Source: a virus. From it: a stretch of DNA of 64,000 nucleotides. The position numbers were made by a program, and so were the translations under genes. The DNA lies in the IMG/VR virus record IMGVR_UViG_3300047157_000162, positions 1 to 64,000 of that record. One strand, given 5' to 3'. This document shows positions 13,377 to 39,102 of the stretch, one piece after another (position 1 is the first letter of the stretch; every line of letters starts with the position of its first letter). The notes under the pieces are model-generated. The model did no database searches. It was not told where the DNA came from and saw only the letters and a program-made list of their open reading frames with translations.

Positions 13377-13382
13377 AAACTA

Positions 13383-13425: not shown

Positions 13426-13499
13426 CACTTTTCTTGGCCTGATCCTGAAATAAGATCGGAAGAGTAGACTCCGTCCTACGCGACAGTTAAGTAAAACCC

Positions 13500-13560
13500 C
13501 CTCACCCCCTAAAAGTGTATAGCACTTTGTATAGCACCTCACTCCCCCGCCGTAGAGCAC
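13500..13560 (+). repeat. short direct repeats (GTAKAGCAC x3; CCTCAC-C-run x2)
   Basis: gtatagcac at 13517 and 13529, gtagagcac at 13552; cctcaccccc / cctcactccccc. Confidence 0.6.
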
Positions 13561-13563
13561 TTG

Positions 13564-13596
13564 TACAAACTTTATACATTTCATTTCAGATAATAT
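13564..13596 (+). promoter_or_regulatory. class 1 promoter motif, copy 3
   Basis: TACAAActttATACAtttcatttcAGATAATAT. Confidence 0.8.
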
Positions 13597-13631
13597 ACAT
13601 GAAAATAAATATTAACTTAAATAAATAAATT

Positions 13632-13865
13632 ATGTCGCAAGTATTAAAAAGTAAAAGATTCGTAGTAAGAAAATCACTTATTGGTAAAAATCAAATCATT
13701 GAAGTAACATTCAAAAGTGGTAAAGTTGCAAAGTACAATCACGATCAAGTGTTCGAAGTAATGAAGAACAAATTAGAAGCAATGGCGTGCTGGGAAAAGT
13801 ATAAATCCTACACTTCAAGCACTTCAATGCCTGTAATAACAAGAGAACTACTTATAACTGAGTAG
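13632..13865 (+). CDS. early protein, paralogue B of 12941..13174
   Basis: 77 aa with clear similarity to the 12941 ORF; near-identical leader aatattaacttaaata...aattATGTC. Confidence 0.8.
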   Translation: MSQVLKSKRFVVRKSLIGKNQIIEVTFKSGKVAKYNHDQVFEVMKNKLEAMACWEKYKSYTSSTSMPVITRELLITE

Positions 13866-13945
13866 TATCTTGTACAGAGAGGTGTAGTATAAAACTTCCC
13901 ATACTATTTCATGGAGTAAATAATAGTACACCTCTAAAATCAAGT

Positions 13946-13978
13946 TTCAAAACTAATACAAGTCACTATAGATAATAT
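13946..13978 (+). promoter_or_regulatory. class 1 promoter motif, copy 4
   Basis: ttCAAAactaATACAagtcactatAGATAATAT. Confidence 0.8.
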
Positions 13979-14016
13979 CTATGTAACAATTAATAACTAT
14001 AATAAAAAGTAATACT

Positions 14017-14151
14017 ATGCAAGTAACATTAACATGCGATAATGGTAAAATAATAGATCTAACTAGCGATATCTTAGATCAAATGGAAGGTAAAGTAACT
14101 AGAAAAGACGTTCTTAACAGAATAGAATTTTATAAAGAAACAAACAGATGA
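14017..14151 (+). CDS. small hypothetical protein (44 aa, not in ORF track)
   Basis: MQVTLTCDNGKIIDLTSDILDQMEGK...; behind promoter copy 4. Confidence 0.5.
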   Translation: MQVTLTCDNGKIIDLTSDILDQMEGKVTRKDVLNRIEFYKETNR

Positions 14152-14247
14152 GAAGTTTAAATAAAAGAGTGTTGTTAACACTAGAGAAAGTAAACAGAGT
14201 ATTAACCGAGCTAGGTAGCGCTGCCGCCTTCGCGATAAGAAATTAAT

Positions 14248-14496
14248 ATGGAATATAAAGGATATACTTACGAGAAAATACAAGTAGAAAACTGGAAGGG
14301 TGAGATCAATACTATGTATCTATGTAGCGATAATGATCTACTACAACATGTGAAAACAAGTAGTTTTACTAAATTAACTTTGCAGAGAATGAAAGACGAG
14401 ATCGATTACTTAGTCGAGAACGCTAATCACCACGTAGAGCTTAATAAATTAGAGTACGAAGCAACTAAACACTTCTTACAATATAAATACGATTAA
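14248..14496 (+). CDS. hypothetical early protein
   Basis: 82-aa ORF on the coding strand of the early block. Confidence 0.6.
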   Translation: MEYKGYTYEKIQVENWKGEINTMYLCSDNDLLQHVKTSSFTKLTLQRMKDEIDYLVENANHHVELNKLEYEATKHFLQYKYD

Positions 14497-14509
14497 AGCG
14501 AGATAATAT
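14477..14509 (+). promoter_or_regulatory. class 1 promoter motif, copy 5
   Basis: TACAAtataaATACGattaaagcgAGATAATAT. Confidence 0.8.
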
Positions 14510-14531
14510 TAATGTAAATAAATAATAAACT

Positions 14532-14744
14532 ATGCAGAATACTATTAAATTTTTCAAAGACAAAAAGAATCAAGCGCCAATGGCGAGACTAAACGATGTA
14601 ACTTACAAAGGTTATTTAATCGGTGAACTACCAAGTAAGTTTGCCTTCATGTACGATCAAGAACAAGAAAAAGAGGGTGTTATCGAGTGGTTTAACCACG
14701 AAGGTTTAACTTATATAGAAAAGTCTAATAATCCGTGGGCGTAA
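14532..14744 (+). CDS. hypothetical early protein
   Basis: 70-aa ORF behind promoter copy 5. Confidence 0.6.
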   Translation: MQNTIKFFKDKKNQAPMARLNDVTYKGYLIGELPSKFAFMYDQEQEKEGVIEWFNHEGLTYIEKSNNPWA

Positions 14745-14926
14745 TATGAGTTTATTCCACTGGTCAGAAGAAACTATAAGTCACTTCGAATTTATGAGTA
14801 GTTACTTAAGTAAAGAGCAAACTATAGACAAAATAAAGCAATTTGTAGTAGTTGACTGTGTTCCTGCAGAAGAGGAAACTGAAGAAATGTTAGTAGAAGA
14901 TTTAATTAATATAATATACAAGTAGT

Positions 14927-15109
14927 ATGAAGCTGACAAAGAATGAAATAAAGGGAATAGCGTATCAACTAGATGAAGTAATAAGTAATAACTTTCATAA
15001 CACTATATATAATACTGTATGGGAAAGAGAAATGCACTCTGACGAAGACATAGAAGTAGACGACGAAGATATATTAGCAATTAAACAAGAATTAAAAAGA
15101 ATACTATGA
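14927..15109 (+). CDS. small acidic hypothetical protein
   Basis: 60-aa ORF overlapping the next start. Confidence 0.55.
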   Translation: MKLTKNEIKGIAYQLDEVISNNFHNTIYNTVWEREMHSDEDIEVDDEDILAIKQELKRIL

Positions 15110-15348
15110 TGACAATGAAAGAAATGTGTGCATACGTAGATCAGAAAAGAAAAGCTGATGCTATACACCATCGTAAAACTGTGACTAAAGGTGAATTTTG
15201 TAAACCTTTCACTGAAAAAGAGCACAAAATGGTGAAAACAAAGTCTAAAGGAGCGGGATCTAAAGGCAGGAAACACGCTCATACCAAGTTGTGGACTTAC
15301 CATAACTCAGGAGTGTCGTTCAAAACTAATACGAAAAAAGTAAGATAA
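15106..15348 (+). CDS. small basic hypothetical protein
   Basis: 80-aa ORF with ATGA coupling to the previous gene. Confidence 0.55.
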   Translation: MMTMKEMCAYVDQKRKADAIHHRKTVTKGEFCKPFTEKEHKMVKTKSKGAGSKGRKHAHTKLWTYHNSGVSFKTNTKKVR

Positions 15349-15351
15349 TAT
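15319..15351 (+). promoter_or_regulatory. class 1 promoter motif, copy 6
   Basis: ttCAAAactaATACGaaaaaagtaAGATAATAT. Confidence 0.8.
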
Positions 15352-15592
15352 ATACATGAAATCAACAGCAGATATATTACAAGAGCTATCAATGTACGCT
15401 AACCTCAACTATGAGGACGATTGGTATTTAAAAGATAAAATTAACGAGTTAAAAACTAGAATATATGAGCAAACAAATAGTTAAAAGTCCATGGGATTTA
15501 GCCTATGAAGAGTATAAAGATGTATACAGCAGAGCAGAGATAGATGATATGCTTTTCTGTGAAATAGATGAACTAATAAATCAAGAATAGAA

Positions 15593-15787
15593 ATGAGTAT
15601 AACAAAGCAAATAGACGAAATAGCAGAAAGAATAGCTGAAATTACACTGCAACTAATAGAAGACAGTGTTGATTGGCAAATAGCGGATCAAGATTTAGAC
15701 GGTGATGAGTACAGTGAACTACATGACTACGTTGTTAGTGAGTCGATAGAAAAACTTTACAAAAACAATACGATTAACTCTAGATAA
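15593..15787 (+). CDS. small acidic hypothetical protein
   Basis: 64-aa ORF. Confidence 0.55.
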   Translation: MSITKQIDEIAERIAEITLQLIEDSVDWQIADQDLDGDEYSELHDYVVSESIEKLYKNNTINSR

Positions 15788-15790
15788 TAT
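15758..15790 (+). promoter_or_regulatory. class 1 promoter motif, copy 7
   Basis: TACAAAaacaATACGattaactctAGATAATAT. Confidence 0.8.
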
Positions 15791-15814
15791 ATATGTAACA
15801 AAAAATAATAAACT

Positions 15815-16003
15815 ATGTACTGTAAATGCGGCGACGAGGTCCACCCTTACCGATTAAACTTAGGATATAAGACATGTCCACCCTGTTCTGAAGTAAAAAA
15901 ACATTCTTATGTTCCAATTACTTACCATAAAACAGGTAATACAATTCAAATAGTAAGTCAAGAGCTAAGTGCACTTGTACATAAATCACAAAGACGAAGA
16001 TAA
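15815..16003 (+). CDS. C4 zinc-finger protein, DksA/TraR-finger-like
   Basis: CKCGDEVHPYRLNLGYKTCPPC resembles the C-x-CG...RL...CxxC pattern. Confidence 0.5.
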   Translation: MYCKCGDEVHPYRLNLGYKTCPPCSEVKKHSYVPITYHKTGNTIQIVSQELSALVHKSQRRR

Positions 16004-16004
16004 T

Positions 16005-16457
16005 ATGAATACACTAACACAATGGCAAGCTCGCCGAAAAGAGCTAGAAGACAAGTATGTAGAGTTAATGCTTGCTAAGTACCCACTACTAACTGATGTA
16101 ACTACAAATACACAACGTGAAAATGGTACTAGAACGTTCCAACTTAACCACAAAAAGTATGGTTTATGTAAATTTGCTACATACAAATCAGGTATGGTGC
16201 GTAAAATAATAAGAACTAGATTTAAAGATTTATCTTGCTATCAACTAAATCCTCAAAGATCAATAACTAATTATTATATGACACTTGGTGACAATAGCGA
16301 GTTAAATATGAGCTCTTATGTAGGTAAACAAAGAGTAAAAATAACTAACGGCCTTGCTAGATTAGTGTATCTAGAAAAATACTTAATAAAAAACTACGAC
16401 TTAGACTCAGTGCAAGACGTAATCGAGGTTGATGGTGTATTGTATAAAAGAATATAA
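16005..16457 (+). CDS. hypothetical early protein (probable start MNTLTQW)
   Basis: ORF 15969..16457; the ATG at 16005 directly follows the previous stop. Confidence 0.6.
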   Translation: MNTLTQWQARRKELEDKYVELMLAKYPLLTDVTTNTQRENGTRTFQLNHKKYGLCKFATYKSGMVRKIIRTRFKDLSCYQLNPQRSITNYYMTLGDNSELNMSSYVGKQRVKITNGLARLVYLEKYLIKNYDLDSVQDVIEVDGVLYKRI

Positions 16458-16612
16458 ACACGGTGGAGGGCTTAGTACGGCTACGGTATTTTAAGTAGTT
16501 AAGCTAACGAAGATCCTCTAATGTGTTTATTAGTCAGCGAATAAATAACGACCGCGACAAAGTGTGGGGAATGTCTGGCGAATAGTAGAGTTTTACGGTA
16601 TATAGCTCTCTC
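16454..16612 (+). ncRNA. candidate structured non-coding RNA
   Basis: nested stems ataaacac/gtgtttat, ggagg/cctct, gctt/aagc, ggctac/gtagtt; gtcag/ctggc; agagtt/agctct; no convincing ORF. Confidence 0.4.
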
Positions 16613-16628
16613 TAAATAAGAAAACCGA

Positions 16629-16717
16629 CAACTAGGTCAGGCAAAACATTTACAAGTGCACTTGTTAGTGTGTATGGGCTACCGACGGGTATGAGGTTCG
16701 AATCCTCACTAGTTACA
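16629..16717 (+). ncRNA. tRNA-like element with non-canonical D and anticodon regions
   Basis: T-arm TGAGG-TTCGAAT-CCTCA, acceptor-like pairing (C)AACTAG/CTAGTT(A), extra hairpin TACC-GACG-GGTA. Confidence 0.5.
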
Positions 16718-16720
16718 AAT

Positions 16721-16794
16721 GGCGCGGTGGAGAAGTTGGTTATCTCGCGAGTCTCATAAACTCGAGGTCGAAGGTTCGAATCCTTCCTGCGCAC
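16721..16794 (+). tRNA. tRNA with CAT anticodon (Met, initiator-like features; Ile2 not excluded)
   Basis: GGCGCGG/CTGCGCA acceptor, GAGA/TCTC D-stem, CGAGT-CTCATAA-ACTCG, GAAGG-TTCGAAT-CCTTC; CCA not encoded. Confidence 0.9.
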
Positions 16795-16814
16795 CTAATT
16801 TAAAATTAAATAAA

Positions 16815-17018
16815 ATGAGTAAAACTAAATTTAATGGATTTGAAAAGTATTTCATCCAAACAGCGTTAAACCACGCTATCAAACAAGCTGAAGAAGATGT
16901 TAAAGAACTAATAAGCGAAGGTAAAAGACCTCTCTATTCAGAAGGTTACTTTACTATGGTAGGTAATGAAATATTAGATAAAGTAAATAGTATGACACTT
17001 AAAAAATACCAAGATTAG
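16815..17018 (+). CDS. hypothetical protein (true start MSKTKFNG)
   Basis: the listed ORF 16719..17018 runs through the tRNA; the ATG at 16815 has a typical A-rich leader. Confidence 0.6.
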   Translation: MSKTKFNGFEKYFIQTALNHAIKQAEEDVKELISEGKRPLYSEGYFTMVGNEILDKVNSMTLKKYQD

Positions 17019-17019
17019 T

Positions 17020-17052
17020 TACAAATTTAATACGATACACTACAGATAATAT
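17020..17052 (+). promoter_or_regulatory. class 1 promoter motif, copy 8
   Basis: TACAAAtttaATACGatacactacAGATAATAT. Confidence 0.8.
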
Positions 17053-17076
17053 ATATGAATTTAAAATAACAATAGC

Positions 17077-17310
17077 ATGAGCAATTTACTACAATCAATT
17101 AAACCCAAGTACATCAAACTTATTAAACAAAGTGACTACAAGTTTACTTCGTCAAGAATTATTGCTAAACTAGAAAGCAGCAAGTGGTATGGTGAGCTAA
17201 CTATACAAGAGATCAGAGATATATATGACATGTGTAGTATCAACGCGTTAAGAGTATCAGCGTGGGACTACAGATTCGGCGATAACATTTTAATAGACGG
17301 CGATGACTAA
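17077..17310 (+). CDS. hypothetical early protein
   Basis: 77-aa ORF behind promoter copy 8. Confidence 0.6.
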   Translation: MSNLLQSIKPKYIKLIKQSDYKFTSSRIIAKLESSKWYGELTIQEIRDIYDMCSINALRVSAWDYRFGDNILIDGDD

Positions 17311-17741
17311 GCAAGAATTACAACAACGAGCAAGCGACAAAGCTTTCGCTAGAATGTCTATGCTCTTGATTACAATCGAGCAAAACAAAGAAGATATACG
17401 TACAGGTAACTACGGAGGTGTTACATCACACTGAGATGGATATAGTATTAAATAGTAATAAAACAGAATTAAAGGTGTGGCAATACATCGCTAAATTAAT
17501 AGAAACAGATGAAGAATAAATATATAACCGACGAGTTAATAACTCAGAGAATGTCCGAGAAAGGTTGGATCGAAGGATGTGACGACGAGCATGCTAGAAA
17601 CCAAGTACTTGCACACTATGAATGTGAATAACTGATCAATGGCGAAACCCAGACTTCAGTGTATACGAAGAGTCAACTGCTGACGGCTACTCTGTATGGA
17701 TAGCTGCCGCTGATACAACTCGTATAAACGTAAACGAAGAT

Positions 17742-18167
17742 GTGTACTACTATGAAAACGAACTTACAGACGCGTTATACGAAGTAATACCTGACTACAA
17801 TCAGATATACTGTGACAACTATGACTTTGTTGAAGATGCTATCACTAGACACTACGAAGATCTATTATGTAAAATGGAAGACGAAATTATAGATGAGTTA
17901 CTTAATGAAGGTTATAACCATAAAATAGTTAACCCTATAAACACGCTACAATATATAGAAATGATCTCTCAAGATTGTAGTTTTTTAGACGGTAGCTCAA
18001 GAGCTATAAATCTAACAGTAGATGAAGACTATAGGTATTTAAACTATGCTAGTCAAATAATTAAAGACAGAGCCAGGTATGAGATTGTAGCTAATCATTA
18101 TGGTCTAACTATCGAAAGAGCTGTTAAAGGTGAATTAATATTTAAAGAATTAAAAAATGAAAACTAA
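17742..18167 (+). CDS. acidic hypothetical protein (N-terminus probably extends upstream across a frameshift)
   Basis: GTG-start ORF; the upstream sequence from about 17509 looks coding. Confidence 0.5.
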   Translation: MYYYENELTDALYEVIPDYNQIYCDNYDFVEDAITRHYEDLLCKMEDEIIDELLNEGYNHKIVNPINTLQYIEMISQDCSFLDGSSRAINLTVDEDYRYLNYASQIIKDRARYEIVANHYGLTIERAVKGELIFKELKNEN

Positions 18168-18420
18168 AAAACAAACAGTACCTAAATGGTTTAAAGGAAC
18201 CATATATGGTGAAGGTGAAACAGTAACCAATCCGTTCAGTGGCGAATGCTATACACTCAACAGCCTCGAGCTCTCAATGTACGATTATATTATGGGTAGC
18301 CAATATATATTTGAAGTAGCACCTAAAACTGTTACACCTAAACAAGTCAGTGAGTTTCAAAAAGCGTTAAACTGGTTTCGTAAAAATAATACAGAAGCAT
18401 ACTTCGTGTTGCTTGATTAA
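18157..18420 (+). CDS. hypothetical protein
   Basis: 87-aa ORF, overlapping start. Confidence 0.6.
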   Translation: MKTKKQTVPKWFKGTIYGEGETVTNPFSGECYTLNSLELSMYDYIMGSQYIFEVAPKTVTPKQVSEFQKALNWFRKNNTEAYFVLLD

Positions 18421-18453
18421 TACAAACTAAATACGATCGCTAATAGATAATAT
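18421..18453 (+). promoter_or_regulatory. class 1 promoter motif, copy 9
   Basis: TACAAActaaATACGatcgctaatAGATAATAT. Confidence 0.85.
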
Positions 18454-18464
18454 AATAAAAAATT

Positions 18465-19070
18465 ATGAACTTATTAACACAAAATTCTAAACTAAAAAAA
18501 ACATCAAAAGAACTCGGGTTCCGGGTCTTTAACTTCGGTATTCCTGCCTACAAATCTGCTAGCGGGAAACTGACGTGCCCAATGGCTGACAGTTGTGTTA
18601 AATTCTGTTATGCCAAGAAAGGAGCCTACATCTGGAGTAACGTAAAACCTGCGTTTGAAAAGCGTTATCAACTCAGCAAGACTGACATGTTTGTTGATGC
18701 TATGAACGCTGAAATACGTAAGAAGAAACCTGATTACGTCAGAGTCCATGATAGCGGCGATTATTATTCTCGCGCATATCTAAAAAAGTGGATCGACATT
18801 GCTAATAGCAATCCTAACGTACGGTTTTACAGTTACACCAACATGATTGATATGATGTTAAAAACCTCATTACCAAGTAATTACGATATAATATTCAGTG
18901 ACTCTGGAAAACAAAAACATTTAATAGATGAGACAAAGCATAGACACACTAAAATTTTCTCAAGCCATGCTGATCTTGATAGGGCTTCGTATACTGATGC
19001 CAGCTCTATTGATTTAATGGCTACTAAGTGGTTTAATAACACTAATAAAGTAGGTTTAGTATTTCACTAG
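18465..19070 (+). CDS. Gp88-family Cys-cluster (radical-SAM-like) protein
   Basis: NSKLKK N-terminus, TCPMADSCVKFCYA, VRVHDSGDY and FYSYT motifs. Confidence 0.75.
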   Translation: MNLLTQNSKLKKTSKELGFRVFNFGIPAYKSASGKLTCPMADSCVKFCYAKKGAYIWSNVKPAFEKRYQLSKTDMFVDAMNAEIRKKKPDYVRVHDSGDYYSRAYLKKWIDIANSNPNVRFYSYTNMIDMMLKTSLPSNYDIIFSDSGKQKHLIDETKHRHTKIFSSHADLDRASYTDASSIDLMATKWFNNTNKVGLVFH

Positions 19071-19103
19071 TACAAACTAAATACAATTAACTATAGATAA
19101 TAT
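19071..19103 (+). promoter_or_regulatory. class 1 promoter motif, copy 10
   Basis: TACAAActaaATACAattaactatAGATAATAT. Confidence 0.85.
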
Positions 19104-19143
19104 AATAAACAAAAAACTTATGAACACATTTAAAAAGCAATAA

Positions 19144-20759: not shown

Positions 20760-21527
20760 ATGAAGAAATATAATATACAAAATTACATAAGGTATAAAGC
20801 AGATGTTAAAAAATCTATAGCTAATCTTGATGGTAAATTTTGGGATGAATATACTAGAGATGAACTTATAGTAAAATTTATACCACTAGTTGAGAACTTA
20901 GCTAGAAAGTTTTCAACATCTGATCAAGCTTCAGGTGTATTAAGTATTAATGATCTTATACAATGTGGTTGCGAAGGACTAGTTAGAGCTGTCGACAGGT
21001 TAGACTGGACTGTTTTACACGAATCTGAAGACGTTGAAAAAACTTTAAAATCGTTTTTAAGTAAAAGAATCAAAGGAGCTATAAGAAGACGTATAGATAT
21101 ATGTAGAGGTAATATTAGAATACCAGAGCATAAGCTAAACGAAATACGTAAAAATCCTGATGACAAAAAAGCAGTTGCTTTGTTTTTTAATTCAGTGTTC
21201 TTAAGTCTTGATAAACCGCATGAGGATGATAATGAAAACGGTGAGTCTTGGAGTAATTCAATACCTGATAAATCTGAGGTTTATAATATAAATTTACTAA
21301 ACTCTTATCTGTTAAGTATACTAAATAAATATTTATCTGAAAAAGAAGCAGACGTTATTAGACTTTCTTATGGTTTAGACTGTGACAAGCATTCAGGAAA
21401 ACAAATAGCAGCTAAACTAGGAATAACTGGAGCACGTGATTATGTGACTGTATCTGAGATAAAAAAGCAAGCTATTAACAAGCTTATAGAAAACGTAGAT
21501 CACTCACAAGTGATTGACTTACTGTAA
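20760..21527 (+). CDS. phage RNA polymerase sigma70-family factor
   Basis: RDELIVKFIPLVENLARKF, DLIQCGCEGLVRAVDR, IRIP, SLD, and region-4 HTH LSEKEADVIRLSYGL...IAAKLGI. Confidence 0.9.
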   Translation: MKKYNIQNYIRYKADVKKSIANLDGKFWDEYTRDELIVKFIPLVENLARKFSTSDQASGVLSINDLIQCGCEGLVRAVDRLDWTVLHESEDVEKTLKSFLSKRIKGAIRRRIDICRGNIRIPEHKLNEIRKNPDDKKAVALFFNSVFLSLDKPHEDDNENGESWSNSIPDKSEVYNINLLNSYLLSILNKYLSEKEADVIRLSYGLDCDKHSGKQIAAKLGITGARDYVTVSEIKKQAINKLIENVDHSQVIDLL

Positions 21528-32238: not shown

Positions 32239-35200
32239 TTAATTTAGTACTCTTCTCTTACTGCTTTTTCCTCTTACGTTCTTTCTACTTTTGGATTTTT
32301 TAGATTTTTTAATACCTAACTGCCATTCAGACCATCCAGCTAGTAAAGCTACTCTCTGCGCTACAGATATATTTTCTTGAGTAGATGCTGTTACATTATT
32401 TATTTTCTTAACAACTCTATCTAGAGGTACGTTTGTCGTAGCTGATATAACATTAGCTCCCGCTAAGTAAGCCGGGTTGTCTAAACTAAAACCTTTTTCT
32501 TTTATTTCTTTTTCATCCCAAGAAAAAGACCTACCAGCGGCTTTTAATTTACTTATTTTAGAAGATATTGGTGGTGATAATTTTAATAACTCTGAAGCAG
32601 CATTTTCGTACTTAGGATTATCTTTAGCACTCTCTTTAGCTAGTTTTATACCAGCGTTTTTAATCACAGTAAAAACCGCTCCACCTATACCCGTACCTCT
32701 AAGTATTGAATCAAGCATACCGTTTGCGATACCAACTACTTTCTTTTCGTCTTCTTCTTCATCTTCTCCAAATGTTATAGCAAATAAAGCTTGCTGCAAC
32801 GCATTAAATATTAAGTTTTGTGCTACACCATAATATATAATCTTAGATATATTTGTTTTAGCATCACCTCGACCATTCTTGAGATCACTAGCGGCTTTTT
32901 TAATTAATCTAGCGTATTGCGCTGGTGTGTTAGCGAAAGCTAGTATAATACGCCCTAATGGACCCGCTTGTTGTTGACTTATTCTATCAGGTCTACTTGA
33001 CTGTTGAGATTCTTCTGCTATCTCTCTAAAGTCTCTTAAAGCTTCTCTTTCAGCTGCCATACTGCTTTTACCTTGTTTCATAAGAGATTTAACTCTATTT
33101 CTATAAAAAGTTGCACCACCAGATGCAATAGCAAAACTATCAGCTATTTGAGTTGGCGTAAATCCTAATTTTAATAGTTTGTTTATAACACCTCTAACAC
33201 CTCTTTCTTTAGCTATATCAGCAATATCAGCTTCATTAACATTCATCTTTAATCCATCACGTCTCTCGATTAAGAACTCAGAGTTAAATAGTTTTTTGAA
33301 GTCTGTCCAATATTGTTTTTGATTAGCAAAAGCTTTACCTGCAGCTAGTATATTATTGTCTCCAAAATTTATAAAGTTTACAGCAGACAATGTTTGTAAC
33401 ACGGCTGATCTAGTGTTAAAAAACATTATAGCACCAATACTACCTGTTAACCAGTCAGTTACTCTGGTTGTTAAAGAATCTACACCTGTAGATCTATTTC
33501 TACCAGTCTTCATTCTTTTTAATATATTCTCCATAGCCATACGATATTGTTTACCATATATAGCCTCTAGTTTATTTAAGTTTTTCTCTGAAAATATAAT
33601 ATCAACATTTTGTTGCCAAAGTTCTAAGTACTTTTTTCTTTTATTTGTATTTAAAGTTTCTAATAAATCAGTCGTTATGGTACCTGTATTCCAAGAGTCA
33701 GTAGGTGATATATAGCCAGTACCTTTGTTAAGTTTCATTATTTCTGTACCAAATACTTTTAGATCTGGGTTTGAGTCAACGTATTTAACTAAACTATCTA
33801 TATCGCTTTTGTCTAAACCAGGAACATCTTCACCTATTTGATTCCATATCCAAACACGAACAGCTTGCTCTTTAGTGAAAGAATCTCCAGGTATCTTCTT
33901 TTTTAAATCTTTTGGAACTATTTTAAGTTTCTTTTTTAACTCTCTAAAATCCCTACCTAAAGCATTTCTATCTCTAGATATGTTTTCCATAGCTCTAGCA
34001 AATGGGTTTAGTAAATTTTTCTTATACCAAGCCATTTGAGCGTCTCCTGTCCTACCCTTACCTAATGTAGCATATAACAAACCTACAAAATCTTCAGCTG
34101 AAGGTGGTATAAAGAATTTAAATCTACCTTTACTAGCTCCAACAGTCTCTGCTTTTACTCGCTTATATTCTTTATCAGAAGCTATACCAGACTTTTTCTC
34201 TAATATATCGTTAAAATCTTTATCTAAGTTTTGAATATTACTGAACTGTATACCAGCTTCTGATTGCTGATCATCTAAGCTTTTCATTTCATCTAAAACT
34301 TGATCCATAGTAAAATTACCTTTTAATCTTTTAGATTTAGGTAACGTGTCATTATTAGATTTAGACGCTTGCAGTGTTGACTTGTATAATTCTTTTATAC
34401 TTTTTACATTTTTACTTTCACTAAAATCAAGTATTGGTGTCAAAGATATATTAGCACCGTTATTTTCATTAGCATATTTGTATCTAGTAGGAAAACCTTT
34501 TTCGTCTGGATATATTAAATCAAGAGAATAATCACTTTTAGAATCGCCTTTCCTAGGACCATTCATTTTGTTTGTTTTGTTTACTATAGAGTCTTGATCC
34601 TTAGGTATAATAGCAACATCGAAGTTCTTCATTATTTTATCGAACATGCTGTTAAATTCAGCCTCTGTTTTACTATTGTATAAAGCTTTCATCAATTCAA
34701 CAGAAGTGTCCGAAGCTGTTTGAGAATGTTCGTACACGTAATCAGAGTCACTTAATCCGTTTACATACATTATCCACTTAGGTATAGCCGCTGTTCTAAT
34801 TAAGGAATCAGTATTACTATTCATCATAGTAAAAATCATAGGTATAAAAGTCTTGTCATTAGGATTTTTTTTGTTATACTTTATTAATGTTTTTAGTATT
34901 TTCTTTAATCCTTTTCTTTGATCTTTGGCTATGTTAATTCTTTCCTTTATTGTTTCAAAAAACTTACCAGAGTTAATACCTTCTGACGATTGTTTTTTAA
35001 GAACAGATAGCTTTATTTTTTTACTGTTACCATCTATATCTGTATACTCAACAAGTCTATCACCTTTTTCATGAGTTATTTGTTTTAATCCCTTTTTCTC
35101 TCTGTGTTCGTTATAAGACTTAAAAAAATCAGATCTTCCTTCGAAAGCGATATTTCTAACGTTTTTAAAATCTTCAGAGTAAACACTTTTGCCGTTAACT

Positions 35201-38200
35201 GTTTTCCATTTATAGTTGTAACCCTTGCTAGCTGTTGGTAATATGTACTTCACAAAATCATCTTCACTGAAGCTATCAAATACATCAAATATATCTTTTT
35301 TAAATTTATTTACTTTTTGCTCATCATTAAAGTCTACATTAGCCTCTTTATTAGTTGTAGCTTTATATGCGTTTGATATTTTACTAAATTGAATATCAGA
35401 TTTACCTGCTTGTATGTTCTGCTTTTGTACGTCGGTGACATTATCTAACTGCCTTATTTCTGTGTTAGTAGCTAGTTTACCGAACAGCATTGTTATAGCT
35501 TTTAGTCTTTGACCTATTTTTCTGTCATACTTATTAGCTTCACCTTTCTTAATACCTAAGTCTTCTAAAAACTGCTCGTATGTAAGATCTTTTTTAAGTT
35601 CTTTAATAACAACTTGAGATGTAACACCTTTACTTCTTTTACCGGTAGCTTCGTAAAAAGCTTTCATTAAGCTTGTAGGTATCTTTAAGCCTGTACCTTT
35701 AACACTCTTATAAGCTTGGGCATCTACAGTGGCTAACTCAGGAGCTACGTTGTTTGGTGGCATTAACTTAAACAAGTCAGGACCCATAGACTTTATTATG
35801 TCTTGTATTTTACTTGACTCTGATTTTATAATCATACCAACCTTAGCTTCAGGGTAGTATTTTTTAATACTTTCTATATTCTTATTATCTACTACAACGT
35901 CTTTAAAAGCTAAGTTATCTGCAGGATCTGTAACTTTTAATACGGGTATATCAAATATTTCTGCAGTAACTTCAGCTGCTAAATCTTTTAAATTACCAAA
36001 AGTAGATCCGTCTATAGTTGCTTTACCAGATTCAACCATACTTTTAACAGCATCCCTGTATTTTTTCTGTAAACCTAAATCTCTTATTAATTCTATAGGT
36101 TTTATCTTTCTAGACGGTTTTTTAGTAGTTTCTACAGACTTTGTATCTGTTGTCGATGCAACTTCAGCTACTGAACCTACTTCACCAGCTTTAACATCTA
36201 GACTTTTATCTGCTATTTTTCTAAACTTCTCGTAAGTTTGTTGAGCTTTTGGAGCTATATTATTATACACCCAAGTAGAAAACTTAGATTCATCTGGTTT
36301 ATAAGATTCAATTATCTTAGGTAAAAATTGTCTAAGATAATCTCTTACTTCGGTTCTATCTAAATCTCCTTTTCTAGTGTCATATTTTATAGCTTTTAAA
36401 GCCATCGTATCGAAAGACTCTACTAATTCAGACTCTGCAGCTGCTTTATCTTTTCTAGTAGTTTCTTTTGATTTTATAGTCTCAACTAAAGCCTCGTTAT
36501 CATAAGTCTTTTTAGTAGTTTCTTCTTTTTCTGCTTTTTCTTTTTTAACTACAGGTTTTTTTACAGGTGCTTTTTTAGCTTGTATTATTTTATATTGCAG
36601 GTTAGATCTTAAAGCATCAAACTCGTCTGGATCATATTCAAACTCGTTTTCATCTAGTGTTTCAAGCTCTTGCTCTAAAGACTGAATTTTCTCTTGATTA
36701 ACATTAGAAAAATCTGATTGTTTTGTTTTAGAAAAATCAGTAGTTACACCTAACTTAGGAGCAACAAACTGCTTAATGTCTTTGCTTATAGCGCCTTTTT
36801 CCGCAGACTTACTATACTCTCGCATAAAGTTGTAAACATCTTTACCGGTGTCAAAATTTAGTTTGCTAAAACCTAGTGATCTAAATAAAGGCATTAACAT
36901 GTCACCTATCTTGGTAAATAAAGTTTCATTATATTTTATCTCTTTATCAGCAATAGCGTCAGAAAAAACAGTTAGGTATTCTTTATTATAAGTATCTTTA
37001 TTAACAATACCGGTTTCCTTATCTGTGTATCTAGCCTCCATCATGCGCTCCATGAAGTCTAATTGATCTTTAGATAACTGATTTTTAAACTCTTCAACTA
37101 CAGCACCTTGTTGATCTGCATCACCTACAATTGCGTTTAGTATAGGGTGTAATGTTTCGTGAGCACCAACATTTAATTGATTTAATTCCACAAGTCTATC
37201 CTTGTTCATAAAAAACTCGCCATTAGCAAAAAACCCACCGCTGTTATCACTGTAATTAGTGTTGTTTATTTTATTTGTTTTTTCAGCTATTTTAGATTTA
37301 TCTAATTTTTTATCTATATTGTTTATCTCAAGCTCTCTAGCTTTTTTATTAAAATCTTCAGGGCTTAGAGCAGTACTTTTTATACCAATACTAGCAGCAT
37401 CCTTAGCAAAGCTTAATGTTTTTTCTTTTCTATCTTTTTTTATTTCTAGATCCTGCTCTTTATTTATAGCATCTAGTCTTTCTGATTGTGTACCTGTTAG
37501 GGCTTTGTCGTTTATTTCTTTTATTTGAGCTTCTAAGTCTGATTTTTCTTTTTGTAACTCAACAATTTTAATCTCTGCTTTTTCGCTAAGGTTTAACGAT
37601 TTTACTTTATTTACAGTTCCTTGAGTCTTTATAAAATTCTTTTTTATAGCATCACCTTCCTCTTTTGTTATCTCAGCTCTTTTCACTTGAGCATCAACTT
37701 TTTCGTCTAGTATTTTTCTAGAGTTTTTTATTTTAGATATTTTAATTTCTGCATCATCAGTTTTAGTCTCTGGCTTAAAAACATCTACTATGTTTCCATA
37801 CTCAGTTCTATTAATCTCTTTGTTAACTTTAATTCTATCTAGGTTTGTTTGAATATTCAAAGCTTGCTTACCTAAAGTTAAAGGAGCACTACCTAACCCA
37901 GCAACTGCTTCAAAACCAATTTCAGCAACATCCATTTCTTGGTCAGCAACATACCTTCCAGCTACTTCACCTAAACCACCACCAGCTATTTCAACACCAC
38001 CGGTAACGCCAGCAGCAACCATAGGTGCTCTTTTAAATCCAGCAGTTGCTAGTTTACCACCAACACCTTTAGCTATTCCTAATGTAGCCATTTCAACAGC
38101 AGCGATAGCTACACCTCTATTTAAAGCTCTATTTTTTAAATCGGCTAGTTTTTCTGGATCTTGAAGTATTTTCTTTATTTTATCTGGATCTAAACCTCCT

Positions 38201-39102
38201 GCTTCTTCTTGAAGCAATTCAGCAAAAGTTAAACCAGTTTCCATAGCTCCCATAGTACCAGCCATACCACCAGCAACAGCTCCACCTAATGTAGATACTC
38301 CTGGTAAAGGTATTGCAGAACCAGCAACAGCTCCTGTAGCAGCAGCAGCAGCACCAGCTGCCCTAACTTCATCAGAGCGTAATGAGCTTATTTGATTAGA
38401 AATAGAACTAACTAGCATTGTAGATAGCGTTGAAGGATTGTTAACAACACCTTTTATGAAACCCCAAAAACCACCACCTTCTTCTTCATATATTCTATTA
38501 AAATCTTGCATCTCTGCAGATCCTAAGTTTTTTCTAGCTATTTCTTTGTTTTTGTTTACGAAGTTTAAAACATCTTCGTCAGTAGCTTTATCACCAAGCT
38601 TATATAACTCATATGATGGATCTACTAATTCACCTTGTCTCCAACCTTCTTTAGCCGCTGTAGCTATATCGCTAAAAAAATCAACAAAACCTGTAGCTGA
38701 AAAAAAGCTTTCATCTTCTTCTAAAACATCTCTTTCAGCTAAATCTTTTTGATATTCTTTAAATTCTTTTTCACTTACTGGCTCCCCGTTTATCACAAAC
38801 GGATCCATTGATTGTGATTCCAAAGAAGTATCTACCGGCGCTAATTCCGTATCTTTTAGTGCAATTTCCCCTTCCTGCGACTCTGCAACTGCACTTGGTA
38901 CATCGTCTGTCGGAAAATCTTCTGCAGAAGAAAAACCAAACTGTGTATTAAATTCATCTATAGATTTAGTGTACTCTCCGTTGTCGTTCAAGGCTTTGTA
39001 AAGTACTTTTGACTTTTCTTCGTTTCCAAATTGTTCTTTAAAATCTTCAAAAGACCCAGTATAATCACCGGCTTCAAATAAACTATTATATAATTCTTCC
39101 AT
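32239..39102 (-). CDS. giant internal virion/DNA-ejection polyvalent protein (membrane segments, HExxH metallopeptidase motif, sigma region-2-like domain, helical C-terminus)
   Basis: 2287 aa after the tail genes; G/A-rich hydrophobic stretch; AHETLH at about aa 648; DNEALV...ELVESF...IIESYKPDESKFSTWVYNNI...SLD at about aa 865-970. Confidence 0.75.
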   Translation of the reverse strand: MEELYNSLFEAGDYTGSFEDFKEQFGNEEKSKVLYKALNDNGEYTKSIDEFNTQFGFSSAEDFPTDDVPSAVAESQEGEIALKDTELAPVDTSLESQSMDPFVINGEPVSEKEFKEYQKDLAERDVLEEDESFFSATGFVDFFSDIATAAKEGWRQGELVDPSYELYKLGDKATDEDVLNFVNKNKEIARKNLGSAEMQDFNRIYEEEGGGFWGFIKGVVNNPSTLSTMLVSSISNQISSLRSDEVRAAGAAAAATGAVAGSAIPLPGVSTLGGAVAGGMAGTMGAMETGLTFAELLQEEAGGLDPDKIKKILQDPEKLADLKNRALNRGVAIAAVEMATLGIAKGVGGKLATAGFKRAPMVAAGVTGGVEIAGGGLGEVAGRYVADQEMDVAEIGFEAVAGLGSAPLTLGKQALNIQTNLDRIKVNKEINRTEYGNIVDVFKPETKTDDAEIKISKIKNSRKILDEKVDAQVKRAEITKEEGDAIKKNFIKTQGTVNKVKSLNLSEKAEIKIVELQKEKSDLEAQIKEINDKALTGTQSERLDAINKEQDLEIKKDRKEKTLSFAKDAASIGIKSTALSPEDFNKKARELEINNIDKKLDKSKIAEKTNKINNTNYSDNSGGFFANGEFFMNKDRLVELNQLNVGAHETLHPILNAIVGDADQQGAVVEEFKNQLSKDQLDFMERMMEARYTDKETGIVNKDTYNKEYLTVFSDAIADKEIKYNETLFTKIGDMLMPLFRSLGFSKLNFDTGKDVYNFMREYSKSAEKGAISKDIKQFVAPKLGVTTDFSKTKQSDFSNVNQEKIQSLEQELETLDENEFEYDPDEFDALRSNLQYKIIQAKKAPVKKPVVKKEKAEKEETTKKTYDNEALVETIKSKETTRKDKAAAESELVESFDTMALKAIKYDTRKGDLDRTEVRDYLRQFLPKIIESYKPDESKFSTWVYNNIAPKAQQTYEKFRKIADKSLDVKAGEVGSVAEVASTTDTKSVETTKKPSRKIKPIELIRDLGLQKKYRDAVKSMVESGKATIDGSTFGNLKDLAAEVTAEIFDIPVLKVTDPADNLAFKDVVVDNKNIESIKKYYPEAKVGMIIKSESSKIQDIIKSMGPDLFKLMPPNNVAPELATVDAQAYKSVKGTGLKIPTSLMKAFYEATGKRSKGVTSQVVIKELKKDLTYEQFLEDLGIKKGEANKYDRKIGQRLKAITMLFGKLATNTEIRQLDNVTDVQKQNIQAGKSDIQFSKISNAYKATTNKEANVDFNDEQKVNKFKKDIFDVFDSFSEDDFVKYILPTASKGYNYKWKTVNGKSVYSEDFKNVRNIAFEGRSDFFKSYNEHREKKGLKQITHEKGDRLVEYTDIDGNSKKIKLSVLKKQSSEGINSGKFFETIKERINIAKDQRKGLKKILKTLIKYNKKNPNDKTFIPMIFTMMNSNTDSLIRTAAIPKWIMYVNGLSDSDYVYEHSQTASDTSVELMKALYNSKTEAEFNSMFDKIMKNFDVAIIPKDQDSIVNKTNKMNGPRKGDSKSDYSLDLIYPDEKGFPTRYKYANENNGANISLTPILDFSESKNVKSIKELYKSTLQASKSNNDTLPKSKRLKGNFTMDQVLDEMKSLDDQQSEAGIQFSNIQNLDKDFNDILEKKSGIASDKEYKRVKAETVGASKGRFKFFIPPSAEDFVGLLYATLGKGRTGDAQMAWYKKNLLNPFARAMENISRDRNALGRDFRELKKKLKIVPKDLKKKIPGDSFTKEQAVRVWIWNQIGEDVPGLDKSDIDSLVKYVDSNPDLKVFGTEIMKLNKGTGYISPTDSWNTGTITTDLLETLNTNKRKKYLELWQQNVDIIFSEKNLNKLEAIYGKQYRMAMENILKRMKTGRNRSTGVDSLTTRVTDWLTGSIGAIMFFNTRSAVLQTLSAVNFINFGDNNILAAGKAFANQKQYWTDFKKLFNSEFLIERRDGLKMNVNEADIADIAKERGVRGVINKLLKLGFTPTQIADSFAIASGGATFYRNRVKSLMKQGKSSMAAEREALRDFREIAEESQQSSRPDRISQQQAGPLGRIILAFANTPAQYARLIKKAASDLKNGRGDAKTNISKIIYYGVAQNLIFNALQQALFAITFGEDEEEDEKKVVGIANGMLDSILRGTGIGGAVFTVIKNAGIKLAKESAKDNPKYENAASELLKLSPPISSKISKLKAAGRSFSWDEKEIKEKGFSLDNPAYLAGANVISATTNVPLDRVVKKINNVTASTQENISVAQRVALLAGWSEWQLGIKKSKKSKSRKNVRGKSSKRRVLN

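What the first reader, a model, noticed from the sequence alone, without database searches (positions are those of the whole stretch)
36180..36510. Sigma-factor-like domain embedded in the giant ejected virion protein: candidate virion-delivered sigma for early transcription
Seen: residues about 865-975 of the 2287-aa protein read YDNEALVETIK...KAAAESELVESFDTMALKAI...EVRDYLRQFLPKIIESYKPDESKFSTWVYNNIAPKAQQTY...KSLDVKAGE. Established: sigma70 regions 1.2-2.4 follow the pattern D-x-x-L-V...A-x-x-x-L-V...D-L-x-Q...A-I-x-x-Y/F-D-P...F-S-T-Y/W...I, and a later SLD motif marks the region 3-4 linker. The stand-alone sigma at 20760 also has SLD. Podoviral internal proteins in this genomic position are injected with the DNA. 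Inference: the phage injects a sigma-like module that redirects host core RNAP to its early promoters before any phage gene is expressed. This would explain why the 10 early promoters differ from the Bacteroidota consensus although no phage RNA polymerase is visible. It would be an alternative to the virion RNAPs of N4 and crAss-like phages.
Basis: partly seen in the sequence, partly recalled or inferred. Interest (0 to 1): 0.9.

Follow-up and report, generated by a model that had tools for sequence, protein, structure and literature searches.

The report
Sigma-like domain in giant phage protein
A giant protein of a marine flavobacterial phage, probably carried in the virion, contains a very diverged copy of the sigma-factor domain that grips bacterial RNA polymerase, so the phage may deliver a polymerase-binding module with its DNA, although its exact job is not shown.

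Summary
Residues 862-971 of the 2287-aa ORF (window 32239-39102, minus strand) are a conserved, very diverged sigma-70 region-2 domain.

- **Fold:** in the AlphaFold2 model's fold search, 24 of the first 25 rows are sigma entries.
- **Profile:** a family profile aligns in register with 30 Bacteroidota sigma region-2 sequences, well above shuffled controls.
- **Docking:** a complex model places it on the RpoC clamp helices (0.67, best control 0.13). That pass may come from memory of solved sigma complexes.
- **Missing parts:** no sigma-4 was detected. The next domain (aa 999-1239) folds confidently and has no known relative.

- **Virion delivery:** it rests on gene position and on resemblance to 'polyvalent' injected proteins.
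- **Early promoters:** the same tripartite early motif occurs in both genome copies of this record and in 13 of 50 related records. The sigma-like domain there is only 12-40% identical, while the stand-alone sigma is 58-70% identical. This argues against the domain setting early-promoter specificity.

My best reading is a delivered, sigma-2-only module that captures host RNA polymerase. First readers flagged the same idea twice more on this record.

The parts
32239..39102 (-). Giant ORF of 2287 aa (P0001): a multidomain protein at the end of the structural gene block, and a putative ejected 'polyvalent' virion protein.
   Evidence: ORF list and translation. 152 homologs of 1257-4003 aa. Domain map from conservation. 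Neighbours are portal, terminase, a crAss muzzle-like protein and tail fibres.
37873..38367 (-). Gly/Ala-rich hydrophobic segments in the N-terminal part (aa 246-410): candidate membrane-inserting region.
   Evidence: Kyte-Doolittle 19-aa windows above 1.2 at aa 246-281, 326-349 and 392-410. phrog_32588 (function unknown) matches aa 133-536 at 1e-33. Membrane insertion is an inference.
36583..37425 (-). Conserved region with an HExxH motif (HETLH, aa 648-652, nt 37147-37161): candidate zincin-like metallopeptidase.
   Evidence: H, E and H are nearly invariant in 33 aligned sequences. Genome copy 2 has an HExxH motif (QHEFMH) in its counterpart gene. The fold was not predicted. The role is inferred from the polyvalent-protein paper PMC5512222 (passages seen).
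36190..36519 (-). Sigma-70 region-2-like domain (aa 862-971). Model helices lie at aa 869-877, 883-904, 916-924, 927-933 and 941-966.
   Evidence: AF2 model. Fold searches. hhalign with controls. PDB profile hit to SigB. Complex model with RpoC clamp helices.
35386..36108 (-). Domain 2 (aa 999-1239): a conserved alpha/beta domain directly after the sigma-like domain. Its fold has no recognised relative.
   Evidence: AF2 on 41 sequences gave pLDDT 90.8 and pTM 0.88. Present in 44 of 54 related loci. Fold searches are described under Tried and rejected.
34423..35385 (-). Variable insert (aa 1240-1560).
   Evidence: Covered by only 38-51% of 78 distant homologs.
32383..34305 (-). C-terminal domain (aa 1600-2240): the most conserved part of the protein, function unknown.
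   Evidence: 95% coverage and 47-83% column identity among 78 distant homologs. 46% identical to the C-terminal part of the copy-2 gene. Atlas neighbours are unnamed viral clusters. Not folded.
20760..21527 (+). Stand-alone phage sigma factor (255 aa), given for comparison.
   Evidence: Sigma70_r2 and Sigma70_r4 just under Pfam cut-offs. phrog_351. 58-70% identical in 6 of 7 related records.
12850..19104 (+). Ten copies of the tripartite early motif TACAAA-N5-ATACRA-N8-AGATAATATA, each shortly before a start codon.
   Evidence: Positions came from an earlier first-reader note. I read all ten copies myself.

Best explanation
Residues 862-971 are a true but extremely diverged homolog of sigma-70 region 2. 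This is the domain by which sigma factors hold the beta-prime clamp helices of core RNA polymerase. It is built into a giant multidomain protein that the phage most likely packages and ejects with its DNA.

The domain order is: hydrophobic Gly/Ala-rich N-terminus, HExxH peptidase-like region, sigma-2-like domain, a domain of unknown fold, a variable insert, and a conserved C-terminal domain.

Proposed mechanism: after ejection, the sigma-2-like domain docks its region 2.1/2.2-like helices on the host RpoC clamp helices, either still tethered or cut free by the neighbouring peptidase. The phage would thereby capture host core RNA polymerase at the point of DNA entry, or compete with host sigma for it, before any phage gene is expressed. 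The module is sigma-2-only, like T4 gp55.

Shown here: the fold, the profile similarity, conservation across the family, and the absence of a detectable sigma-4.
Supported only by a model: docking on the clamp helices.
Inferred: virion packaging, ejection, cleavage, and the effect on transcription.

I do not think the domain sets the sequence specificity of the ten early promoters.
For: Fold: 24 of the first 25 rows of the all-PDB structural search are sigma entries covering aa 862-971 (Z 8.0-5.5). Foldseek against the PDB gives 8 sigma entries in the first 10 rows (best E 0.19, probability 0.98). In the viral library, ranks 2, 3, 5, 6 and 7 are phage proteins named sigma factors (E 0.07-0.19).

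Sequence: hhalign scores 28.2 (P 2.4e-4) in register, against shuffles of mean 12.0 and maximum 20.0, with 0 of 60 reaching it. An ECF-sigma profile scanned over the whole 2429-column family profile finds its best local match on exactly this domain (P 0.014; the next best is P 0.35). The PDB profile search puts SigB first (E 0.011).

Conservation: 88 of 120 homologs match at E <= 3e-21. HMMs detect the domain in 24 of 54 related viral loci, plus 7 more at E < 1e-5 with a broader profile. A profile search finds 453 clusters.

Docking: complex prediction with a Flavobacteriaceae RpoC fragment (aa 245-350) gave a score of 0.67, with the best of 3 controls at 0.13. That mark was reached by 58 of 80 solved complexes and 2 of 110 mismatched pairs. 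The runs agree in at least 77% of contacts, and the partner's pLDDT is at least 70. The counts hold only roughly because my own alignment was used. The interface is RpoC aa 276-315 (the coiled coil) against aa 887-894, 917-929 and 962-969 of the giant protein. In the hhalign register these align with the region 2.1/2.2 helices of host-type sigmaA.

Context: the gene sits at the end of the structural block after muzzle-like genes. An HExxH motif is nearly invariant. The polyvalent-protein paper describes injected giant proteins rich in zincin peptidases that 'jump-start transcription', and N4-like virion polymerases that are always fused to such peptidases (PMC5512222, passages seen).

Host: all named terminase relatives infect flavobacteria (86 of 87 records; the other record is unnamed). 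Only 2 of 48 genes have a Shine-Dalgarno-like 4-mer upstream.
Against: No Pfam Sigma70_r2 hit, for the protein or for 0 of 24 family members. hhalign against the phage's own sigma family is not significant (E 0.13).

The model of the sigma-like part has only moderate confidence (pLDDT about 70-76). Z of 8 or less is within the range the tool warns is common for helical models.

Sigma2-clamp-helix complexes have been solved, so the complex pass may reflect likeness and not binding.

No column of the 24-sequence family alignment is 90% conserved. That is odd for a surface that should grip an almost invariant host target.

Virion location is not shown. tblastn of the whole protein, its N-terminal part and its C-terminal part against 50,697 phage records found nothing. 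The syntenic 'structural protein' gp101 of Cellulophaga phage phi38:1 shows no similarity. The C-terminal domain and the peptidase-like region were not folded.
Confidence: 0.45

Rival explanations
1. One reading: the injected domain is a true initiation factor. Together with host core RNA polymerase it recognises and melts the tripartite early promoters at time zero, as a sigma-2-only sigma like T4 gp55.
For: The early motif ends in a -10-like GATAAT(AT) and is not of the Bacteroidota -33/-7 type (consensus recalled; motif read). The motif is rare on a Flavobacteriaceae MAG chromosome contig (4 hits against 2 for the backward control) but clusters on that MAG's phage-like contigs. The stand-alone sigma gene lies downstream of the early promoters, and in copy 2 directly behind one, so it cannot act first unless it is packaged. 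No phage RNA polymerase was found among the 19 larger proteins scanned. The window's domain keeps a KFSTW motif where host-type sigmaA has KFISY in the DNA-melting part of region 2. T4 gp55 is among the top structural matches (Z 7.4).
Against: The same motif occurs in both genome copies and in 13 of 50 related records, including 6 of 6 near-complete ones. The sigma-like domain in those phages is 12-40% identical, and its melting-region motif varies freely. In copy 2 it is barely detectable (E 4.5e-5 for half of the domain). The conserved motif tracks the conserved stand-alone sigma instead (58-70% identity in 6 of 7 records). The motif has three fixed elements spread over 34 bp, yet no sigma-4 or known DNA-binding fold was detected.
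Confidence: 0.15
2. The sigma-2 fold has been taken over for a task unrelated to RNA polymerase. Examples are holding single-stranded or terminal phage DNA, binding another ejection or portal protein, or serving as a spacer in the ejected protein.
For: Sequence divergence is extreme, with no column at least 90% conserved. Some homologs carry 42-aa insertions inside the domain. Related phages have giant proteins in the same position without a detectable copy: MW202828 (3859 aa) and phi38:1 gp101. The flanking domains have no transcription-related signature.
Against: The complex model docks it on the clamp helices through the homologous helices, far above the controls (0.67 against 0.13). The hydrophobic and aromatic pattern of regions 2.1-2.4 is kept across subfamilies. 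The domain is kept next to domain 2 in most family members.
Confidence: 0.25
3. The domain acts inside the producing cell, late in infection and before packaging. It would serve as a late sigma-like or anti-sigma-like regulator, and not after ejection.
For: The gene lies in the late structural block. The closest sigma-2-only precedent, T4 gp55, is a late factor (recalled).
Against: Being embedded in the middle of a 2287-aa protein, with hydrophobic segments and a peptidase-like region, fits a delivered polyprotein better. The stand-alone sigma is the obvious factor for the later class. Nothing tested here addresses timing.
Confidence: 0.07
4. Chance resemblance: a generic helical bundle that only looks like sigma region 2.
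For: No curated-threshold family hit. Foldseek E-values are all above 0.001. Z is at most 8. hhalign probability is only 44%.
Against: 24 of the first 25 rows out of 48,161 chains are sigma entries. The register is the same in three independent sequence comparisons. Shuffle controls never come close. Under the same search, domain 2 gets nothing above Z 3.6.
Confidence: 0.08

Closest known systems
T4 gp55 (late sigma made of a sigma-2-like domain only)
   Same: Both are sigma-2-only modules of a phage with no sigma-4. gp55 is a top structural match (7d7d_F: Z 7.4, rmsd 3.5 A, 92 residues). Binding of gp55 to the beta-prime clamp helices and its reading of a -10-like element alone are recalled knowledge.
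   Different: gp55 is a free small protein made late, and it needs gp33 and the sliding clamp (recalled). Here the domain sits in the middle of a 2287-aa putative virion protein, and nothing shows that it initiates transcription.
ECF (group 4) sigma factors, region 2
   Same: The best sequence and fold resemblance is to this group: sigmaE, SigW, SigK, CnrH and AlgU appear among the top rows. hhalign gives an in-register match to 27 ECF and 3 sigmaA-type sequences.
   Different: No sigma-4 domain was detected. It is not a dissociable subunit. It falls below Pfam thresholds.
Virion-packaged RNA polymerases (N4 vRNAP, crAss-like phi14:2 gp66, P23-45 tape-measure-fused polymerase)
   Same: These are giant proteins encoded at the end of the structural block and ejected with the DNA to start early transcription. 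Per PMC5512222, N4-like polymerases are always fused to zincin peptidases. The phage here has a crAss muzzle-like protein.
   Different: No polymerase domain was found. Pfam vRNAP_dom gives E 0.82. A DxDxD motif occurs in the C-terminal 750 aa of only 4 of 32 family members. The module would borrow the host enzyme and not bring its own.
T4 Alt and other packaged host-modifying proteins; 'polyvalent proteins' of phages (Iyer et al. 2017, PMC5512222)
   Same: The concept is proteins delivered with the DNA that act on host RNA polymerase or jump-start transcription. The architecture is giant and mosaic with an HExxH peptidase-like region. The Atlas gives the polyvalent-protein domains LPD39 and LPD38 as weak leads for the C-terminus.
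   Different: Alt is an ADP-ribosyltransferase, not a sigma mimic. The word 'sigma' does not occur in the main text of that paper (0 occurrences). No LPD family of Pfam is hit.
Stand-alone phage sigma factors (this phage's own at 20760-21527; phiEco32 / 7-11 type)
   Same: They belong to the same protein superfamily, occur in the same genome, and likewise redirect host core polymerase.
   Different: The stand-alone sigma has regions 2 and 4, is well conserved (58-70% identity), and is made after infection. hhalign between the two families is not significant (E 0.13).

Membership tests
Sigma-70 family (region 2 domain) | Sigma domain-2 fold (helical bundle of regions 1.2-2.4) | tested here: met
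   24 of the first 25 rows of the all-PDB structural search are sigma entries over aa 862-971 (Z 8.0-5.5). Foldseek's top hits are sigmaE region 2 (probability 0.98, E 0.19). The model's pLDDT there is only about 70-76.
Sigma-70 family (region 2 domain) | Match to Pfam Sigma70_r2 at the curated threshold | tested here: not met
   No hit for the whole protein or for the 170-aa piece. 0 of 24 family members hit when scanned singly.
Sigma-70 family (region 2 domain) | Profile-profile similarity to bona fide region 2, in register | tested here: met
   hhalign scores 28.2 (P 2.4e-4, probability 44%) against shuffles with mean 12.0 and maximum 20.0, 0 of 60 reaching it. The same place is found when scanning the whole family profile (P 0.014). 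SigB is the best PDB sequence hit (E 0.011).
Sigma-70 family (region 2 domain) | Binds the beta-prime clamp helices of core RNA polymerase through regions 2.1/2.2 | tested here: inconclusive
   The complex model scores 0.67 against a best control of 0.13, and the interface is on the coiled coil. It is a model only and may come from memory of solved complexes.
Sigma-70 family (full sigma factor) | Sigma-4 (or sigma-3/4) domain for the -35 element and the beta flap | tested here: inconclusive
   Nothing sigma-4-like appeared in the fold searches of domain 2 or in the ECF profile scan of the whole family (second-best alignment P 0.35). Parts of the protein were not folded.
Sigma-70 family (full sigma factor) | Free, dissociable subunit | tested here: not met
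   The domain is embedded at aa 862-971 of a 2287-aa ORF. Five short hits inspected from the profile search are fragments of giant proteins. Release by proteolysis cannot be excluded.
Sigma-70 family (full sigma factor) | Confers promoter-specific initiation on core polymerase | not testable with these tools
   The indirect covariation test is negative: the motif is constant while the domain is 12-40% identical.
Polyvalent (injected) proteins of phages and conjugative elements | Giant mosaic multidomain protein | tested here: met
   At least five conservation blocks with variable inserts. Homologs range from 1257 to 4003 aa with shuffled parts.
Polyvalent (injected) proteins of phages and conjugative elements | Zincin-like metallopeptidase domain (HExxH plus a downstream Glu) | tested here: inconclusive
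   The HExxH motif is nearly invariant and is also present in copy 2 and in G037. The fold was not predicted, and there is no Pfam hit.
Polyvalent (injected) proteins of phages and conjugative elements | Packaged in the virion and delivered into the host | not testable with these tools
   Only synteny supports this: the gene lies at the end of the structural block after muzzle-like genes, and the syntenic phi38:1 gp101 is annotated 'structural protein' but is not detectably homologous.
Virion RNA polymerases (N4-like, crAss-like two-barrel) | Polymerase catalytic domain or motifs | tested here: inconclusive
   Pfam vRNAP_dom gives E 0.82. A DxDxD motif occurs in the C-terminal 750 aa of only 4 of 32 members. 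The C-terminal domain was not folded.

The most novel reading that the evidence does not exclude
A widespread group of marine flavobacterial podophages injects a sigma-2-only initiation factor as part of a giant ejected polyprotein. Together with host core RNA polymerase, it fires the phage's non-host tripartite early promoters before any phage gene is expressed. This would be a third way, besides virion RNA polymerases and packaged modifying enzymes, of starting early transcription.
Probability: 0.15. Interest if true: 0.9.

Novelty: new variant of a known kind. Interest (0 to 1): 0.7.

Why it matters
Sigma factors are known as free subunits. A sigma region-2 domain built into a giant, probably ejected, virion protein is an architecture I could not find described. 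Four full-text searches found nothing, and the polyvalent-protein survey does not contain the word 'sigma' in its main text.

The family is large: 453 clusters at 50% identity. Its phages belong to a common group of marine Flavobacteriia viruses. These phages also have a sharply defined, non-host early promoter whose reader is unknown.

If the domain binds host core polymerase on arrival, phages would have a way to seize the host enzyme at the site of DNA entry without carrying a polymerase. That could serve transcription start, transcription-driven DNA entry or host shut-off. The idea is directly testable with a 130-aa fragment and a 100-aa RpoC fragment.

Separately, the neighbouring 240-aa domain is a confidently predicted fold with no recognised relative.

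Tried and rejected
Searches with the whole protein gave little. Pfam gave only a weak PF25310 'VG15' hit on the same stretch (E 0.0036-0.12), and I could not establish what VG15 is. PHROGs gave only phrog_32588 (function unknown) on aa 133-536. phmmer, and a whole-family profile, against PDB sequences gave only low-complexity or coiled-coil noise.

megablast and tblastn of the gene, its N-terminal part and its C-terminal part against 50,697 phage records found no match.

hhalign of the domain family against the phage's own sigma family was not significant (E 0.13). That alignment has little diversity.

Domain 2 was folded alone. Foldseek against the PDB gave a best E of 1.7. The all-PDB aligner gave a best Z of 3.6 and no row at Z >= 5. 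So no sigma-3/4, HTH or other known fold was recognised. This does not prove that the fold is new. The Atlas feature search for domain 2 gave no usable hit.

For the C-terminal domain, the Atlas gave only unnamed viral clusters, with LPD39 (28% of members) and LPD38 as weak leads.

I tested whether the syntenic giant proteins of cultured or complete relatives carry the domain. MW202828 (3859 aa, two HExxH motifs) shares only the Gly/Ala-rich part and gives no hit to the sigma-like or domain-2 HMMs. phi38:1 gp101 (1691 aa) shows no significant similarity by BLAST or by four HMMs. I therefore dropped my idea that phrog_32588 links the protein to a proteomically verified virion protein.

I considered record G037 as a natural case of 'early motif without a stand-alone sigma'. 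It has no sigma by protein, profile, r2 or r4 searches. I rejected it because the contig ends inside the HTH gene that immediately precedes sigma in the window. The gene is probably just beyond the contig end.

Five short hits (201-340 aa) that I inspected from the profile search are fragments of giant proteins, not free versions.

No conserved DxDxD motif was found. Supplementary files of papers were closed. File S-type domain lists of PMC5512222 might name this domain under an 'LPD' label, and I could not see them.


Full report
**What is there.** The window holds a 2287-aa ORF on the minus strand (32239..39102). The record that holds the window is a 129.5-kb IMG/VR virus record. It consists of two related genomes of about 63.5 kb joined head to tail, and the window is essentially copy 1.

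The ORF closes a minus-strand structural block:
- terminase (55005-57215);
- portal (52992-55004);
- virion structural proteins;
- a 1392-aa protein and a 332-aa protein, of which the 332-aa one matches the Crassvirus muzzle family;
- a 488-aa protein;
- the giant ORF.

The plus-strand genes encode primase/helicase, Erf, an exonuclease, thymidylate synthase, MazG, ribonucleotide reductase and a 255-aa sigma factor. No RNA polymerase was seen among the 19 larger proteins scanned.

The terminase's relatives in the phage collection are 87 records. Of these, 86 are phages of Flavobacterium, Cellulophaga, Tenacibaculum or Maribacter, and one is an unnamed podovirus. Only 2 of 48 genes have a Shine-Dalgarno-like 4-mer upstream, and GC content is 34%. 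Two MAGs that hold relatives are Saprospiraceae and Flavobacteriaceae. The host is therefore very probably a marine member of the Flavobacteriia.

**Is the sigma resemblance real?** Curated sequence libraries do not see it. Pfam gives no Sigma70_r2 hit for the protein or for any of 24 family members scanned singly.

Structure and profile comparisons do see it. An AlphaFold2 model of aa 850-1245, built on 33 sequences, has a helical first domain (pLDDT about 70-76) and a second domain (about 85). Aligned against 48,161 PDB representatives, 24 of the first 25 rows are, by entry title, sigma factors or sigma-containing complexes. They include SigB, ShbA, the T4 gp55 complex, sigmaE region 2, pro-sigmaK, SigK, SigW, SigA domain 2 and SigC. 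Z runs from 8.0 to 5.5, and all cover model residues 13-122, which are aa 862-971. The remaining row is an engineered scaffold that aligns over the same chain range as the Thermus sigma domain-2 entry. The tool warns that a Z of this size is common for helical models. The argument rests on the uniformity of the list, not on the Z values.

Foldseek agrees. Eight of its first 10 rows are sigma entries. The best is sigmaE region 2 (E 0.19, probability 0.98), but nothing reaches E <= 0.001. In the viral structure library, rank 1 is a piece of an uncultured-virus protein (E 7e-5), probably a homolog. Ranks 2, 3, 5, 6 and 7 are phage proteins named sigma factors.

At the sequence level I built a domain-only alignment from the window and 23 related IMG/VR loci (A2; 12-75% identity to the window).
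- Its profile finds S. aureus SigB as the best of all PDB sequences (E 0.011, in register).
- hhalign against 30 region-2 stretches, taken from the sigma genes of two Bacteroidota MAGs, scores 28.2 (P 2.4e-4, probability 44%, 75 columns).
- That alignment pairs the region 2.1, 2.2 and 2.3/2.4 helices in order.
- The reversed alignment scores 10.0. Sixty block-shuffles give mean 12.0, sd 2.4 and maximum 20.0.
- An ECF-sigma profile scanned over the whole 2429-column family profile finds its best local match on this same domain (P 0.014). The next best, in the sigma-4 part, has P 0.35.

I conclude that the domain is a real, very diverged homolog of sigma region 2.

**Conservation and architecture.** The protein has 152 homologs of 1257-4003 aa in metagenomes. 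88 of 120 match aa 855-985 at E <= 3e-21. A profile search over 1.84 billion representatives finds 453 clusters at E <= 0.001, and the best 150 are nearly all giant proteins or their fragments. More distant members carry recognisably sigma-like stretches of other subfamilies at the same place, just before domain 2.

Conservation along the protein defines these parts:
- a variable N-terminus with Gly/Ala-rich hydrophobic segments;
- a region with a nearly invariant HExxH motif (aa 648-652);
- the sigma-like domain;
- domain 2 (aa 999-1239);
- a variable insert;
- a strongly conserved C-terminal domain of about 640 aa.

Folded alone on 41 sequences, domain 2 is very confident (pLDDT 90.8, pTM 0.88). 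It has no recognisable relative among solved structures: the best Z is 3.6 and the best Foldseek E is 1.7. I therefore found no sigma-3, sigma-4 or HTH partner. The module is sigma-2-only as far as I can see.

**Does it bind RNA polymerase?** I took RpoC from the Flavobacteriaceae MAG and cut out aa 245-350, which contains the clamp-helix coiled coil. I asked for a complex with the domain alignment.

The result was a score of 0.67 with the best of 3 controls at 0.13. That mark was reached by 58 of 80 solved complexes and 2 of 110 mismatched pairs. The runs agree in at least 77% of contacts, and the partner's pLDDT is at least 70. The counts hold only roughly because my own alignment was used.

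The interface is RpoC aa 276-315 against aa 887-894, 917-929 and 962-969 of the giant protein. In the hhalign register, the first two of these align with the region 2.1 and 2.2 helices of host-type sigmaA. From recalled knowledge, these are the core-binding part of sigma. Sigma-clamp-helix complexes are solved, so the pass shows likeness and does not prove binding. A point against binding is that no column of A2 is 90% conserved.

**Is it the sigma for the early promoters?** The ten early motifs are real: TACAAA-N5-ATACRA-N8-AGATAATATA, all on the plus strand between 12850 and 19104, each shortly before a start codon. The motif does not resemble the Bacteroidota -33/-7 consensus (recalled). 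It is rare on the main chromosome contig (C1) of the Flavobacteriaceae MAG (4 hits against 2 for the backward control) but clusters on that MAG's phage-like contigs. The stand-alone sigma gene lies downstream of the motif cluster.

The comparative test goes against the sigma-like domain.
- Genome copy 2 of the same record uses the same motif 12 times. Its giant gene is replaced by a distant homolog, split into two ORFs. The sigma-like stretch of that homolog is detected only in part (E 4.5e-5) and has a different melting-region motif.
- The core of the motif (ACRA-N9-GATAATAT) occurs in 13 of 50 related viral records and in 6 of 6 that are at least 90% complete. The backward control gives zero hits.
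- The sigma-like domains of those phages belong to different subfamilies (12-40% identity).
- The stand-alone sigma is 58-70% identical in 6 of 7 of them and lies downstream of the motif cluster on the same strand. The seventh contig ends just before the expected place.

A constant promoter read by a hypervariable recognition domain is unlikely, though not impossible, because an aromatic residue at the melting position is kept in the subfamilies I inspected. The three fixed elements of the motif would also need more than a sigma-2 domain.

**Best reading.** The giant protein fits the 'polyvalent protein' pattern described by Iyer et al. (PMC5512222; passages seen). These are giant mosaic proteins delivered with the DNA. 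They are rich in zincin-like peptidases thought to process them, and their themes include jump-starting transcription. N4-like virion polymerases are always fused to such peptidases. The word 'sigma' does not occur in that paper's main text.

I therefore read the domain as a delivered module, sigma-2-only, that captures host core RNA polymerase through the clamp helices (confidence 0.45). The downstream effect is open. Possibilities are recruiting the enzyme to the entering DNA, helping transcription-driven DNA entry, or competing with host sigma.

The rival readings are:
- an exapted fold with another job (0.25);
- action in the producing cell (0.07);
- chance resemblance (0.08).

**Limits.**
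- Virion location is inferred from synteny only.
- No cultured relative carrying this protein was found.
- Two large parts of the protein were not folded.
- The complex result is a model.

Four literature searches found no description of a sigma-like domain in an ejected or virion protein. For all of these I saw only search listings and abstract starts. For PMC5512222 I saw passages.

Noticed in passing
whole record (G000: 1-129537); window = 1-64000: The IMG/VR record is a head-to-tail join of two related genomes of about 63.5 kb. Most genes are 72-99% identical at the DNA level, but the giant gene and the tail-fibre genes are strongly diverged. Contig C7 of a Flavobacteriaceae MAG shows the same doubled pattern of early motifs, about 62.4 kb apart.
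   Followed up: partly
window 35386-36108 (-), aa 999-1239: Domain 2 is predicted with very high confidence (pLDDT 90.8, pTM 0.88) but has no recognisable relative among solved structures (best Z 3.6; best Foldseek E 1.7). It is present in 44 of 54 related loci.
   Followed up: yes
window 37147-37161 (-), aa 648-652: An HExxH motif (HETLH) is nearly invariant across the family. It is also present in genome copy 2 (QHEFMH) and in the 4049-aa homolog of G037. It marks a candidate zincin-like processing peptidase just upstream of the sigma-like domain.
   Followed up: partly
window 12850-19104 (+); G000 75179-83037 (+); 13 related IMG/VR records: The tripartite early motif TACAAA-N5-ATACRA-N8-NGATAATATA is conserved across a whole group of flavobacterial podophages. 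It is always clustered on one strand upstream of the sigma gene, and its reader is unknown. The first copy (12850) is followed by TTTG, so a TAnnTTTG-like element overlaps its 3' end.
   Followed up: partly
homologs P0025, P0033, P0044, P0060, P0062: A 42-aa insertion sits in the loop just before the KFSTW motif of the sigma-like domain. In ECF sigmas this position corresponds to the loop between regions 2.2 and 2.3 (recalled label).
   Followed up: no
G000 94900-102289 (-): In genome copy 2 the giant gene is split into two overlapping ORFs of 1261 and 1226 aa. The break falls at the boundary between the sigma-like stretch and the following part. It could be a frameshift, an assembly error or a real split. 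Some metagenomic homologs (1278-1382 aa) also end near there.
   Followed up: partly
window 36184-36444 (-): There is a weak hit to Pfam PF25310 'VG15 protein' (E 0.0036-0.0047; 16-18 bits against a cut-off of 26) exactly on the sigma-like domain. I could not find out what VG15 is.
   Followed up: partly
L091 (MW202828.1 741-12320): The closest complete relative by terminase (64.7% identity) has a 3859-aa giant protein in the same position, with two HExxH motifs. It has no detectable sigma-like domain or domain 2, and shares only the Gly/Ala-rich part.
   Followed up: yes
window 61807-63360 (-): The phage encodes a GroEL-type chaperonin (Cpn60_TCP1, 1e-59), as do Cellulophaga phage phi38:1 and MW202828.
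   Followed up: no
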